In this document: piece after piece, positions 6,001-9,000 of the stretch | How positions within the stretch are numbered: position 1 is the first letter of the stretch | Layout of the letters: every line of letters starts with the position of its first letter | NCBI RefSeq assembly: GCF_003334315.1 | Contig: NZ_QOWR01000015.1 | DNA: 64,000 nt | DNA from: Escherichia coli | GTDB lineage: Bacteria; Pseudomonadota; Gammaproteobacteria; Enterobacterales; Enterobacteriaceae | Direction: 5' to 3' (one strand) | Program-made: the position numbers

Positions 6001-9000
6001 GTTTTCTGTTAATGTTAACAACCCTTGAATTTCGTCTTTGGTATAGTGGCTCTTTATTTCATTTTTTAATTTGGCTGAGTGAATCAGAAGACGATAATTA
6101 GGGTACTTATCTGGATTTAACGATAAATAACTTTTATCTGTTGCTGCCCCCGTGGAATTAAGAATGTTAAATACAGATTCACTCGTCACTTCTGCCCCTG
6201 TCGCCTGGCATGTGCCGCACGAAAATATACCAGCGAGCAGAAGAGTTAATGCAGATTTCCCTTTCATAAAATATTCCATCAATCGTTTGTTAAAAGCGTA
6301 GATAACCACTTATTTAACAACTTGAAAATAAGGTGTTTTACCTGGGTTGTTACAAAAGGATTGCATTGCGTAAACGCTTTTTATTTACAACAAAATGGGG
6401 AAATATTACGGCGATTGCGAAAAGTCTGAAGCGATTGAATTAAGATAATATAGAAAATCAGATACAGCAAAAATGGCAGATTGATGAGGCGAAGATAAAT
6501 TGGAGCGGGCGAAGGGAATCGAACCCTCGTATAGAGCTTGGGAAGCTCTCGTTCTACCATTGAACTACGCCCGCTTCGAGATGCGTAAGGCATTATAAAC
6601 CTTACGCTCTCCTTAGCAAGTGCCGCGCTGCTGACTGCTGATTAATTCGCCATCAGCATTTTGGCTTGCTGCCCTGCGGCGGCAAGTAACGTAGCGGATC
6701 AATTGCCGTTGCACGGTAACGAATCTGGAAATGCAGGCGAACAGATGCCGCATCCGTGCTCCCCATAGTGGCGATTTTTTGCCCAGCCTTCACGCTTTGC
6801 CCATTATTTACCAGCATCGTGTCATTATGGGCGTAAGCCGTAATGTAATCTTCACTGTGTTTAATCATGATGAGATTACCGTAGCCACGCAGCTGGTTGC
6901 CCACATACACCACCTTTCCTGCACCCGCGGCGTAAATAGGTGTACCCCGTGGAGCTGAGATATCAATCCCTTTATTGCCGCCATCTGCTGTCGAATACGG
7001 CATGATAACTTTCCCTGTCGTTGGCCATAACCAACAACGTTGCCCTACTGGCGGCCAGGATGATTTCGGTACCGCTGATGACGGTGTAACCGATGCGGTT
7101 TTGGTCGTTGATTTGGCGGTTGATTTACGTGTACTACTGCTACTTTTCGCCCCACCCAGTTTTAGTTTCTGACCAACTTCAATGGTGTAAGGGGGGGAAA
7201 TGCCGTTCAGTCGCGCCAGTTCTTTTACGCTGGTTCCCGTGGTGCGCGAAATACGATATAGCGTATCCCCCCGTTTCACGGTGTAAACGGAGCCGGAATA
7301 CGTTCCTGTATCGGATGATTTGCTACCCGAACAACCCGCCAAAAGCAGTCCAACCGATAACAACATCACGATACCCAGAGATTTTTTATTCAGGCGTCCC
7401 GCACTCAAAATCTTTCCTCGCTTAAAAAACAAGACGCCTTATCATAGCAGCCAGCCTCTTGATACCCAATCTCTTGCTTCTGGAAAAACGTGGTAATAGA
7501 GAAAGAGGTTAATTTCATTTGGCAAAGGGAAGTATCATCAGCAAAATATTCGCTGTAGAGGTATCGAACTTCCTGACTTTTTACCCTAGTTCCCATCCTG
7601 ATGCGTAATAATCCCAATTTATCACATTGATTTTATCGCCACTCATATTGATACGTATCACTGCCCCTATTCAGAGTCCTGTTTCGTATCATATCTGTGT
7701 TTTTTTAACGTCATCACACTTCCTACCTCCCCTAACGCTTATCGTCGTTTCTGGCGTAAATCTTGCCTGCTTAGACTAAATCTTTGCCATAAGAACCAAA
7801 TGTTCAAATCGAGGGGATTTCTATGGAAGCGCGGGAAGCAACCGCTACGGGTGAATCATGCATGCGCGTCGATGCCATTGCTAAGGTCACCGGGCGGGCA
7901 CGATATACTGACGATTATGTTATGGCGGGCATGTGTTATGCGAAATATGTACGTAGCCCTATCGCACATGGTTATGCCGTAAGTATTAATGATGAACAAG
8001 CCAGAAGTTTGCCGGGCGTACTGGCGATTTTTACCTGGGAAGATGTGCCTGATATTCCATTCGCTACAGCTGGGCATGCCTGGACACTTGACGAAAACAA
8101 GCGCGATACCGCCGATCGCGCACTGCTAACTCGCCATGTTCGTCATCATGGTGACGCCGTTGCCATCGTCGTGGCCCGCGATGAACTCACGGCAGAAAAA
8201 GCGGCGCAATTGGTCAGCATTGAGTGGCAAGAATTACCCGTTATCACCACGCCAGAAGCGGCGCTGGCAGAAGACGCTGCACCAATCCATAACGGTGGCA
8301 ATTTACTGAAACAAAGCACGATGTCGACGGGTAATGTCCAACAAACAATCGATGCCGCCGACTACCAGGTACAGGGGCACTATCAGACCCCCGTTATTCA
8401 ACATTGTCACATGGAAAGCGTAACATCGCTGGCGTGGATGGAGGATGACTCGCAAATTACCATCGTTTCCAGCACCCAGATCCCGCACATTGTTCGCCGC
8501 GTGGTTGGTCAGGCGCTGGATATTCCCTGGTCATGCGTACGAGTCATCAAACCATTTGTCGGTGGCGGTTTTGGTAATAAACAGGATGTACTGGAAGAGC
8601 CAATGGCGGCATTCCTGACCAGCAAGCTTGGCGGCATTCCGGTGAAAGTTTCCCTTAGCCGTGAAGAGTGTTTCCTCGCAACCCGTACCCGCCACGCTTT
8701 TACCATTGACGGGCAAATGGGCGTGAACCGCGACGGAACATTGAAAGGTTATAGTCTGGATGTTCTGTCTAACACCGGCGCTTATGCATCTCACGGGCAC
8801 TCCATCGCTTCTGCGGGGGGGAATAAAGTCGCTTACCTTTATCCTCGTTGTGCCTACGCTTACAGTTCAAAGACCTGCTATACCAACCTCCCCTCGGCTG
8901 GTGCGATGCGTGGTTATGGCGCGCCACAAGTCGTATTTGCCGTTGAGTCTATGCTTGATGACGCCGCGACAGCGTTAGGTATTGATCCTGTTGAAATTCG

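What the first reader, a model, noticed from the sequence alone, without database searches (positions are those of the whole stretch)
7752..7767. Sigma-54-type promoter motif upstream of xdhA
TGGCGT-N5-TTGCC sits with exact -24/-12 spacing about 95 bp upstream of the xdhA start, and a sigma-54 enhancer-binding protein (ygeV) is encoded convergently at the end of the operon. This suggests xdhABC is a direct target of YgeV and RpoN.
Basis: seen in the sequence. Interest (0 to 1): 0.5.

Follow-up and report, generated by a model that had tools for sequence, protein, structure and literature searches.

The report
Known sigma-54 promoter of xdhABC
The motif is the already published sigma-54 promoter of the E. 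coli xanthine dehydrogenase operon, so the finding is an ordinary rediscovery; comparison across species adds a likely, still undescribed, activator-binding site about 110-135 bp upstream of it.

Summary
TGGCGT-N5-TTGCC lies at 7752-7767 (+), with GG and GC in the exact 12-bp register, in the actS-xdhA spacer of an E. coli chromosome. ygeV lies convergent to xdhC.

It is not new. The identical 17-mer CTGGCGTAAATCTTGCC is sigma-54 ChIP-seq site OS29 (xdhA) of Bonocora et al. 2015, flagged there as experimentally confirmed in EcoCyc. Zhao et al. 2010 printed the same sequence, with xdhA up 4.9-fold on sigma-54 induction and down 2.1-fold in an rpoN deletion.

In this single genome the motif is only moderately above chance (11.95 bits, rank 7 of 127,968 positions). 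Conservation settles it: GGC...TTGC is kept upstream of xdhA in 56 of 57 distinct regions (the 57th at a displaced position), from Escherichia to Aeromonas.

I add support for it:
- Two conserved 15-bp palindromes (7619-7633 and 7640-7654; consensus TTATCAnWnTGATAA) lie upstream.
- The same operator recurs upstream of the ygeW, ygfK and ygfT sigma-54 sites.
- Its distance to the promoter varies between species only in steps of about 10.3-10.4 bp.

Novelty: already known. Interest: low.

The parts
7751..7767 (+). Sigma-54 -24/-12 promoter element of xdhABC (CTGGCGTAAATCTTGCC; GG 7753-7754, GC 7765-7766). The predicted transcription start is near 7778.
   Evidence: Sequence read. Matrix score 11.95 bits, rank 7 in the window. 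Identical to the published ChIP-seq site OS29 and to the Zhao 2010 promoter. GGC and TTGC are invariant columns in the 21-species alignment A1 and are kept in 56 of 57 loci. The start at 7778 is inferred, not mapped.
7619..7633 (.). Upstream palindrome box 1 (TTATCACATTGATTT), centred about -152 from the predicted start. Candidate distal YgeV site.
   Evidence: Conserved block in A1. Operator matrix score 14.9. Lies 21 bp from box 2. Box spacing is 19-23 bp in 46 of 57 loci.
7640..7654 (.). Upstream palindrome box 2 (CACTCATATTGATAC), centred about -131. Contains the 12-mer CTCATATTGATA that is also present upstream of ygeW and ygfT. Candidate proximal YgeV site.
   Evidence: The exact 12-mer occurs 3 times in the window, each upstream of a sigma-54 site. 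Operator matrix score 15.5. Lies 110-114 bp from the sigma-54 centre in 38 of 57 loci; the remaining loci differ by whole helical turns.
7703..7718 (.). Conserved element between the boxes and the promoter. TCAC (7714-7717) is invariant and the following A (7718) is nearly invariant (at least 90% of the 21 species). The 16-mer TTTTAACGTCATCACA resembles a CRP site, with 2 mismatches in the left half. Its role is unknown.
   Evidence: Invariant columns T133-C136 and nearly invariant A137 in A1. CRP-like match with 2 of 10 mismatches; no good IHF match in this interval.
7812..7825 (+). Conserved Shine-Dalgarno sequence (AGGGGA, 7812-7817) and conserved ATG (7823-7825). This is the likely true xdhA start.
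   Evidence: The ATG and Shine-Dalgarno columns are conserved in all 21 species. The K-12-type ATG 7862 is CTG, TTG, AAA, CGG or AAG in other genera. RefSeq annotates the start at 7823.
7823..11485 (+). The xdhA (7823-10120), xdhB (10131-11009) and xdhC (11006-11485) operon driven by the promoter.
   Evidence: ORFs, annotation, orthologues.
11492..11515 (.). Perfect 10-bp-stem hairpin (ATCCGGCCTGAATTCAGGCCGGAT) between the convergent genes xdhC and ygeV. Likely a bidirectional terminator.
   Evidence: Terminator scan.
11525..13303 (-). ygeV, the adjacent sigma-54 enhancer-binding protein: PAS sensor, AAA+ domain with a GAFTGA loop, Fis-type HTH, and no receiver domain.
   Evidence: Translation shows GESGTGKE, GAFTGA and a C-terminal HTH. 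Pfam: Sigma54_activat 2e-70, HTH_8 3e-13, PAS_8 1.5e-6.
13458..13472 (.). The same operator in the ygeV-ygeW spacer (ATATCAATATGAGAA). The sister sigma-54 site for ygeW is at 13672-13688 (+).
   Evidence: Operator matrix score 18.3. Sigma-54 matrix score 15.93, rank 1 in the window. The operator lies 214-219 bp from the sigma-54 centre in 26 of the 27 distinct ygeV-ygeW spacers examined, Escherichia to Morganella; the Arsenophonus endosymbiont locus has no strong operator copy.
23306..23320 (.). A perfect copy of the operator upstream of ygfK (TTATCATAATGATAA). The sister sigma-54 site is at 23488-23504 (+).
   Evidence: Operator matrix score 21.1, top hit of the window. Sigma-54 site 12.25 bits. 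Published ChIP-seq site OS31.
38676..38690 (.). The same operator in the ygfT-uacT spacer. The sister sigma-54 site for ygfT is at 38495-38511 (-).
   Evidence: Operator matrix score 18.3. Sigma-54 site located. Published ChIP-seq site OS32.

Best explanation
Window 7751-7767 is the sigma-54 promoter of the xdhABC xanthine dehydrogenase operon.

Shown in published work: RNA polymerase carrying sigma-54 occupies the -24 GG / -12 GC element as a closed complex.

Inferred: transcription starts near 7778 and gives a leader of about 45 nt to the conserved ATG at 7823.

Inferred from comparative evidence, and not shown by binding data: opening of the complex needs an enhancer-binding ATPase, most likely YgeV encoded next door. 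YgeV would bind as dimers to two 15-bp palindromes centred at about -152 and -131, on the same face of the helix as the polymerase. It would reach the promoter by DNA looping and use its GAFTGA loop and ATP hydrolysis to remodel sigma-54.

The same operator upstream of ygeW, ygfK and ygfT would make xdhABC one arm of a single purine / uric-acid catabolism regulon. The signal sensed by YgeV's N-terminal PAS region is unknown.
For: - Published binding and expression. The identical 17-mer is sigma-54 ChIP-seq peak OS29, marked as confirmed in EcoCyc. xdhA rises 4.9-fold on sigma-54 induction and falls 2.1-fold in an rpoN deletion, with the same promoter printed in the paper.
- Motif strength. 11.95 bits on a held-out matrix.
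- Conservation. In the 57 distinct xdhA upstream regions, the best plus-strand hit is this element in all but the Cedecea locus L046, where a stronger hit lies 314 bp upstream and this element is still present 98 bp from the start. GGC...TTGC is kept in 56 of 57 regions.
- Footprint. Alignment A1 shows only five conserved intergenic blocks: two palindromes, TCACA, the -24/-12 element, and the Shine-Dalgarno sequence with its ATG.
- No competing promoter. No sigma-70-like promoter is found beyond chance.
- YgeV. It has Sigma54_activat, GAFTGA and HTH_8.
- Shared operator. The 12-mer CTCATATTGATA occurs exactly 3 times in 64 kb, each upstream of a sigma-54 site.
- Held-out operator test. A matrix trained only on non-Escherichia xdhA upstream regions places 5 of its 6 best E. 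coli window hits in the four sigma-54 promoter regions. Six hits score at least 14, against 1.07 expected.
- ygeW promoter. The operator lies 214-219 bp from the ygeW sigma-54 site in 26 of the 27 ygeV-ygeW spacers examined.
- Helical phasing. Operator-to-promoter distances fall in the classes 112, 123, 133, 142, 153, 163 and 175 bp. The best-fitting period is 10.3-10.4 bp, Rayleigh p about 1e-4.
- Co-expression. xdhABC is in the YgeV iModulon.
Against: - No paper I could read maps the transcription start, or shows YgeV binding or YgeV-dependent xdhA expression.
- The 2026 reporter study found no consistent footprints at YgeV-iModulon promoters.
- In vitro genomic SELEX with sigma-54 holoenzyme listed the ygeV/ygeW spacer but not xdhA.
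- The motif is weak: G instead of A at -22, C after the -12 GC, and a score below 35 of the 38 training sites.
- xdhABC loci in Kluyvera, Hafnia, Edwardsiella, Serratia and most Aeromonas keep both promoter and boxes without a ygeV gene within 8 kb. I could not check whether ygeV lies elsewhere in those genomes.
- The operator matrix was seeded with the E. coli ygfK palindrome. The boxes do, however, also appear seed-free in A1 and in the k-mer comparison.
Confidence: 0.8

Rival explanations
1. The site is a genuine sigma-54 promoter, but it is activated by a different enhancer-binding protein, for example NtrC under nitrogen limitation, because purine catabolism yields nitrogen. YgeV is adjacent only by coincidence.
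For: No direct YgeV data exist. NtrC genomic SELEX gave a peak inside the operon, between xdhB and xdhC. Many xdhABC loci lack ygeV within 8 kb.
Against: - The best match to the NtrC consensus anywhere in the spacer is 7 of 12 specified bases.
- The NtrC SELEX peak is about 3 kb downstream of the promoter.
- The conserved boxes are shared with the ygeV-ygeW spacer and with the ygfK and ygfT promoters, not with Ntr promoters.
- xdhABC co-varies with the ygeW-ygfT genes in the iModulon.
Confidence: 0.1
2. The paired palindromes bind some other regulator, such as a purine- or metal-responsive repressor or a sigma-70-type activator, rather than the enhancer-binding protein. YgeV would then bind elsewhere or act from solution.
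For: The AT-rich TTATCA/TGATAA arms loosely recall Fur-box hexamers (my own knowledge, not tested). No binding data exist. The 12-mer appears in no relevant paper in the library.
Against: - The position (-131 and -152 at xdhA; roughly -200 to -235 at the sister promoters) and the strict helical phasing relative to the sigma-54 element are what looping activators require. A repressor of a promoter more than 100 bp away would not need this.
- The Morganella variant CTCTCAATATGAGAG has no GATAAT hexamers.
- The arms are in the opposite order to the Fur 7-1-7 arrangement (inference).
Confidence: 0.12
3. The motif is a non-productive or chance sigma-54 binding site, and xdhABC is transcribed from an unrecognised sigma-70 or sigma-38 promoter.
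For: Bonocora et al. stress that many of their 135 sites may never fire, and that sigma-54 polymerase was inactive at most sites in their medium. The motif is weak. The loose pattern is at chance frequency.
Against: - The element is conserved at a fixed distance from the start codon across genera whose XdhA is only 67% identical, while the flanks diverge.
- xdhA mRNA depends on rpoN.
- No sigma-70-like promoter is found above chance in the spacer.
Confidence: 0.03

Closest known systems
xdhA sigma-54 promoter of E. coli K-12 (ChIP-seq site OS29 of Bonocora et al. 2015; Zhao, Liu & Burgess 2010; listed as confirmed in EcoCyc)
   Same: It is the same object. The 17-mer CTGGCGTAAATCTTGCC is identical, on the same strand, in front of the same gene. 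The paper gives 84 bp from its predicted start to the K-12 start codon, which is exactly 7778 to 7862 in the window.
   Different: Nothing about the promoter itself differs. I add cross-species conservation, the upstream operator, the phasing, and the case for the start codon at 7823.
Sister sigma-54 promoters of the same cluster: ygeW (OS30), ygfK (OS31) and ygfT (OS32)
   Same: Each has a -24/-12 element facing a purine / uric-acid catabolism operon, and each has a copy of the TTATCAnWnTGATAA palindrome upstream.
   Different: At xdhA there are two strong boxes close to the promoter (-131 and -152). The others have one strong box farther away (about -200 to -235) plus a weak second one.
The glnAp2 / NtrC paradigm of enhancer-dependent sigma-54 promoters
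   Same: It works like this system: a closed complex at -24/-12, two dyad-symmetric activator sites about 110-150 bp upstream roughly two helical turns apart, and face-of-helix dependence (established knowledge; phasing shown).
   Different: The operator sequence is unrelated to TGCACC-N5-GGTGCA. The presumed activator has a PAS-type sensor instead of a phosphorylatable receiver domain. No good IHF site lies in between.
Small-molecule-sensing enhancer-binding proteins that control an adjacent catabolic cluster (for example FhlA with the formate regulon, PrpR with prpBCDE)
   Same: A locally encoded AAA+ activator with an N-terminal ligand-sensing region coordinates several sigma-54 promoters of one pathway (established knowledge; YgeV architecture).
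   Different: The effector of YgeV is unknown. Published hints point in different directions: uric acid and formate, ethanol, or indole.

Membership tests
Sigma-54 (RpoN) dependent promoter | A GG dinucleotide at -24 and a GC at -12, with an exact 12-bp register between them. | tested here: met
   GG at 7753-7754 and GC at 7765-7766.
Sigma-54 (RpoN) dependent promoter | The overall match to the consensus lies within the range of experimentally bound sites. | tested here: met
   11.95 bits on a matrix of 38 ChIP-seq sites with the local sites held out. The training range is 8.2-20.8, so this is the low end. It ranks 7 of 127,968 window positions. The published PSSM score is 10.93.
Sigma-54 (RpoN) dependent promoter | Sigma-54 holoenzyme occupies the site in vivo. 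| not testable with these tools
   Published ChIP-seq peak OS29, fold-above-threshold 11, with the motif 6 bp from the peak centre (Bonocora 2015). The site is not listed in the in vitro genomic SELEX of Shimada 2021.
Sigma-54 (RpoN) dependent promoter | Expression of the downstream gene depends on rpoN. | not testable with these tools
   Published microarray: up 4.9-fold on sigma-54 induction and down 2.1-fold in an rpoN deletion (Zhao 2010).
Sigma-54 (RpoN) dependent promoter | A transcription start mapped about 12 nt downstream of the -12 GC. | not testable with these tools
   I found no primer-extension or RACE result for xdhA in the accessible papers. The start at 7778 is a prediction.
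Sigma-54 (RpoN) dependent promoter | The element is conserved in orthologous positions while the flanks diverge. | tested here: met
   GGC and TTGC are invariant columns in the 21-species alignment, whose mean column identity is 45%. They are kept in 56 of 57 loci.
Enhancer-dependent promoter controlled by YgeV (YgeV regulon) | A cognate enhancer-binding protein with an AAA+ sigma-54 interaction domain, a GAFTGA loop and a DNA-binding HTH. | tested here: met
   YgeV has Sigma54_activat at 2e-70, GAFTGA in the translation, and HTH_8 at 3e-13. It lies convergent and adjacent to xdhC in Escherichia, Citrobacter, Atlantibacter, Yokenella, Buttiauxella, Morganella, Trabulsiella and Klebsiella indica.
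Enhancer-dependent promoter controlled by YgeV (YgeV regulon) | A dyad-symmetric upstream activating sequence shared by the co-regulated promoters. | tested here: met
   Two palindromes lie at 7619-7633 and 7640-7654. The same motif gives the top-scoring hits upstream of ygfK, ygfT and ygeW. Enrichment over a Markov null is shown.
Enhancer-dependent promoter controlled by YgeV (YgeV regulon) | Helical phasing between the upstream sequence and the promoter, as DNA looping requires. | tested here: met
   The seven distance classes differ by multiples of about 10.3-10.4 bp.
Enhancer-dependent promoter controlled by YgeV (YgeV regulon) | YgeV binds the upstream sequence, and xdhA expression requires ygeV. 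| not testable with these tools
   No such data appear in the 51 papers that mention ygeV. The only support is indirect: iModulon co-expression, and involvement of ygeV in uric-acid consumption, cited second-hand. Reporter footprints were inconclusive.
Enhancer-dependent promoter controlled by YgeV (YgeV regulon) | The operator and a YgeV orthologue co-occur across genomes. | tested here: inconclusive
   Loci with adjacent ygeV all have the boxes. However, Kluyvera, Edwardsiella, Serratia, Hafnia and most Aeromonas have the boxes without ygeV within 8 kb.

The most novel reading that the evidence does not exclude
The paired, helically phased 15-bp palindromes (consensus TTATCAnWnTGATAA) are the hitherto undescribed operator of YgeV.

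Together with the sigma-54 elements, they would define a compact YgeV regulon (xdhABC, ygeW and downstream genes, ygfK and downstream genes, ygfT/uacT) that is conserved from Escherichia to Aeromonas.

This would give the anaerobic purine / uric-acid degradation cluster of gut Enterobacterales a concrete, testable cis-regulatory code. It would include a conserved CRP-like element at about -65 that could explain glucose repression.
Probability: 0.55. Interest if true: 0.4.

Novelty: already known. Interest (0 to 1): 0.15.

Why it matters
As found, it matters little.

What could matter is the regulation of the xdh-ygeV-ygfT cluster. This cluster has recently become interesting as the gut-bacterial route for anaerobic purine and uric-acid degradation, which is relevant to gout, and its control is described as poorly understood.

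A defined YgeV operator and promoter architecture would allow three things:
- predicting the regulon in other species;
- designing reporters to find the inducer;
- rationally de-repressing the pathway in probiotic strains, instead of replacing promoters wholesale.

Tried and rejected
- NtrC as activator. No NtrC-like site lies in the spacer; the best match is 7 of 12 specified bases.
- IHF site between the boxes and the promoter. The only match in that interval has 2 mismatches, at 7687. The invariant TCACA does not fit WATCAANNNNTTR, so I do not claim an IHF bend.
- Sigma-70 promoter in the spacer. One weak hit (7519-7547), at chance frequency.
- Known RNA families in the spacer and leader. 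None; only the tRNA-Gly at 6504-6574.
- Co-occurrence test (does the promoter exist only where ygeV is adjacent?). It failed as a test: every xdhABC locus has the promoter whether or not ygeV is nearby, and I could not search the rest of those genomes.
- Literature search for the 12-mer or its reverse complement as a described binding site. Only unrelated primer hits.
- Primary papers. Reitzer & Schneider 2001 and Iwadate & Kato 2019 are not held in the library, so they are cited only second-hand through.
- Fur-box resemblance of the palindrome. Considered and judged unlikely, from arm order and from the Morganella variant. No Fur matrix was run.
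Full report
**What is there.** The window is an E. coli chromosome segment. 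A 1.4-kb query around the site matches 5,412 of 5,426 complete E. coli genomes, and the annotated features under the match are actS and xdhA. The RefSeq annotation of a 100%-identical strain gives the local order: tRNA-Gly, actS (-), xdhA, xdhB, xdhC (+), ygeV (-), ygeW, dpaL, ygeY, hyuA, arcC (+), and further on yqeB, yqeC, mocA, ygfK, ssnA, ygfM. At 7752-7767 the plus strand reads TGGCGT-AAATC-TTGCC. GG is at 7753-7754 and GC at 7765-7766, so the two elements are in the exact 12-bp register of a sigma-54 promoter. ygeV (11525-13303, minus strand) is convergent to xdhC.

**Is it more than chance?** Taken alone in this genome, only moderately.
- The loose pattern TGGC-N7-TTGCH occurs twice in 64 kb, against 3.0 expected from shuffles.
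- I built a position weight matrix from 38 intergenic sigma-54 ChIP-seq motifs of Bonocora et al. (Table 1), leaving out the four sites that lie in this window. The site scores 11.95 bits. That is rank 7 of 127,968 positions and lower than 35 of the 38 training sites.
- This corresponds to roughly a 2% chance of such a hit on one strand of a 390-nt spacer.
- The weakness comes from G instead of A after GGC and from C after the -12 GC.

**It is already known.**
- Bonocora et al. 2015 (PMC4591121) list ChIP-seq site OS29. Its peak centre is at 2,998,270, its fold-above-threshold is 11, its motif is CTGGCGTAAATCTTGCC on the plus strand, and its downstream gene is xdhA.
- The same entry gives 84 bp from the predicted start to the gene, a PSSM score of 10.93, and EcoCyc status 'C', meaning experimentally confirmed. 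The 17-mer is identical to window 7751-7767. The 84 bp equals the distance from 7778 to the K-12-style ATG at 7862.
- Zhao, Liu & Burgess 2010 (PMC2831329) printed tttcTGGCGTAAATCTTGCCTGctta at -110 to -93 of xdhA. They measured a 4.9-fold increase after sigma-54 induction and a 2.1-fold decrease in an rpoN deletion.
- Lamoureux et al. 2023 state that sigma-54 promoters upstream of xdhABC and ygeWXY were identified earlier, citing Reitzer & Schneider 2001. They also state that xdhABC belongs to a 13-gene 'YgeV iModulon'.
- Two caveats remain. I found no mapped transcription start for xdhA. An in vitro genomic SELEX with sigma-54 holoenzyme listed the ygeV/ygeW spacer but not xdhA.

**Conservation.** One scan of 100,044 species genomes with the XdhA N-terminus returned 75 loci. 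I mapped xdhABC, ygeV, ygeW and actS on them by tblastn.
- The xdhA upstream regions comprise 57 distinct sequences. They come from Escherichia, Citrobacter, Kluyvera, Atlantibacter, Yokenella, Trabulsiella, Buttiauxella, Morganella, Hafnia, Enterobacillus, Edwardsiella, Serratia, Klebsiella indica, Cedecea, Pluralibacter and Aeromonas. XdhA identity falls as low as 67%.
- In all but one of them, the best plus-strand matrix hit is this element. It scores 10-16 bits and lies 72-114 bp from the K-12-type start. The exception is the Cedecea locus L046, where a stronger hit lies 314 bp upstream and this element is still present 98 bp from the start.
- Serratia oryzae (L042) carries its site displaced to 199 bp. 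Best hits on the opposite strand mostly score 1-6 bits.
- GGC...TTGC is intact in 56 of 57. The substitutions fall in the spacer and flanks.
- A MAFFT alignment of 21 species (A1; mean column identity 45%) has only five conserved intergenic blocks: two upstream boxes, a TCACA, the -24/-12 element, and a Shine-Dalgarno sequence with its ATG.

This pattern is what a functional promoter gives. It is not what a chance motif or a merely tolerated sigma-54 binding site gives.

**Who activates it?** YgeV is a bona fide enhancer-binding protein. It has a Walker A motif, a GAFTGA loop, Sigma54_activat (2e-70), HTH_8 (3e-13), an N-terminal PAS domain, and no receiver domain.

I compared the regions upstream of the four local ChIP-seq sites (xdhA, ygeW, ygfK, ygfT).
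- The 12-mer CTCATATTGATA is shared exactly by three of them, and a 2-mismatch copy lies upstream of ygfK. The window holds three exact copies and no others. At up to 2 mismatches there are 11 matches against 4.8 expected.
- In alignment A1 this 12-mer is the core of box 2 (7640-7654). Box 1 (7619-7633) lies 21 bp upstream.
- Both boxes fit a palindrome whose perfect form, TTATCATAATGATAA, stands upstream of ygfK at 23306-23320.

I then trained a 15-bp symmetric matrix only on non-Escherichia xdhA upstream regions and scanned the E. coli window. Its top hits were:

| Location | Coordinates | Score (bits) |
|---|---|---|
| ygfK upstream | 23306-23320 | 21.1 |
| ygfT/uacT spacer | 38676-38690 | 18.3 |
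| ygeV/ygeW spacer | 13458-13472 | 18.3 |
| inside yqeC | 21916-21930 | 16.0 |
| xdhA box 2 | 7640-7654 | 15.5 |
| xdhA box 1 | 7619-7633 | 14.9 |

Six hits score at least 14, against 1.07 in second-order Markov controls. The matrix was seeded with the ygfK palindrome. The k-mer comparison and alignment A1 find the boxes without any seed.

In the ygeV-ygeW spacer, the operator lies 214-219 bp from the ygeW sigma-54 centre in 26 of the 27 distinct spacers examined, from Escherichia to Morganella. The exception is an Arsenophonus endosymbiont locus, which has no strong operator copy.

**Geometry.** At xdhA the two boxes are 19-23 bp apart in 46 of 57 loci. The proximal box is 110-114 bp from the sigma-54 centre in 38 of 57. 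The remaining lineages have 122-123, 133, 142-143, 153, 163 or 174-177 bp. These values step by whole helical turns. A period scan peaks at 10.3-10.4 bp (R = 0.94, Rayleigh p about 1e-4 on seven distance classes). Insertions and deletions between the boxes and the promoter have thus been tolerated only when they kept both on the same face of the DNA. That is the signature of a looping activator contacting promoter-bound polymerase.

**Mechanism: what is shown and what is inferred.**
- Shown by others: sigma-54 occupies the site in vivo, and xdhA mRNA depends on rpoN.
- Shown here: the element, two palindromes and their phasing are conserved, and the palindrome is shared with the sister promoters of the cluster.
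- Inferred: the protein on the palindromes is YgeV. It would bind as two dimers that nucleate the AAA+ ring, loop to the closed complex and open it by ATP hydrolysis through the GAFTGA loop. The start would be near 7778.
- Unknown: the effector of the PAS region. Published hints include uric acid and formate metabolism, ethanol in baeR or cpxR knockouts, and indole induction of ygeV itself.

**Rivals.**
- NtrC as activator is unlikely. No NtrC-like site lies in the spacer, and the NtrC SELEX peak lies inside the operon.
- A different protein on the palindromes cannot be excluded without binding data. However, the phasing argues for an activator that must touch the polymerase.
- A silent site is contradicted by the conservation and by the rpoN dependence.
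- A weakness of the YgeV assignment is that several genera keep both boxes and promoter without ygeV within 8 kb. Whether ygeV lies elsewhere in those genomes could not be checked.
- A 2026 reporter-assay preprint explicitly reports no consistent footprints for YgeV-iModulon promoters under its conditions. The question is therefore still open experimentally.

**Verdict.** The sigma-54 interpretation is correct but already published and in the databases. The YgeV link is a reasonable, long-standing hypothesis, for which I provide new comparative support but no proof. Novelty of the finding as submitted: already known. Interest: low. The by-product, a candidate YgeV operator with helical phasing, is a modest and testable addition.

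Noticed in passing
window 7812-7825 versus 7862-7864: The xdhA start codon differs between annotations. ATG 7823 with the Shine-Dalgarno sequence AGGGGA (765 aa, RefSeq) is conserved in all 21 aligned species. The leader is then about 45 nt, not 84 nt.
   Followed up: partly
window 7703-7718 (TCACA at 7714-7718): TCAC is invariant, and the following A nearly so, in all 21 species including Aeromonas, about 60-64 bp upstream of the predicted start. With the T-rich tract before it, the element reads as a CRP-like site with a degenerate left half (2 of 10 mismatches). It does not fit the IHF consensus. It might relate to the reported glucose repression of uric-acid degradation.
   Followed up: partly
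window 21916-21930: A strong copy of the palindromic operator (TTCTCACATTGAGAA, 16.0 bits) lies inside the 3' part of yqeC, about 160 bp upstream of the yqeB start on the minus strand. No obvious sigma-54 element was seen next to it.
   Followed up: no
window 11492-11515: A perfect 10-bp-stem GC-rich hairpin fills the 39-bp gap between the convergent genes xdhC and ygeV. It is probably a bidirectional terminator.
   Followed up: no
window 11525-13303 (-): YgeV has a PAS domain (and a faint GAF-like signal), an AAA+ domain and HTH_8, but no receiver domain. The 'orphan response regulator' label used when it was renamed IsrR does not match its domain content.
   Followed up: partly
window 13672-13688 and 7751-7767: In vivo and in vitro data rank the two sites oppositely. 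ChIP-seq gives xdhA a fold-above-threshold of 11 and ygeW only 3. Holoenzyme genomic SELEX detects the ygeV/ygeW spacer and not xdhA. By sequence, ygeW is the stronger match: 15.9 versus 12.0 bits.
   Followed up: no
L062 2330-4090 and L070 2362-4107: Two Clostridium loci carry a full-length YgeV-like enhancer-binding protein (39% identity over residues 2-589) about 4 kb upstream of their xdhA homologue. The pairing of this regulator family with purine hydroxylase genes therefore extends beyond Proteobacteria.
   Followed up: no
window 62754-62770 (-), 27416-27432 (+), 4426-4455: Other sigma-54-like matches score as high as or higher than the xdhA site: 13.3 bits (CTGGCACAGGCACTGCG), 12.4 bits, and an overlapping pair at 12.2-12.3 bits. 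I did not check whether they correspond to published intragenic ChIP-seq sites.
   Followed up: no
L030 11784-13607 and L061 11785-13599: In Aeromonas diversa and A. schubertii, ygeV lies downstream of xdhC on the same strand, not convergent. The other Aeromonas xdhABC loci have no ygeV within 8 kb, yet they keep both the operator boxes and the promoter.
   Followed up: no
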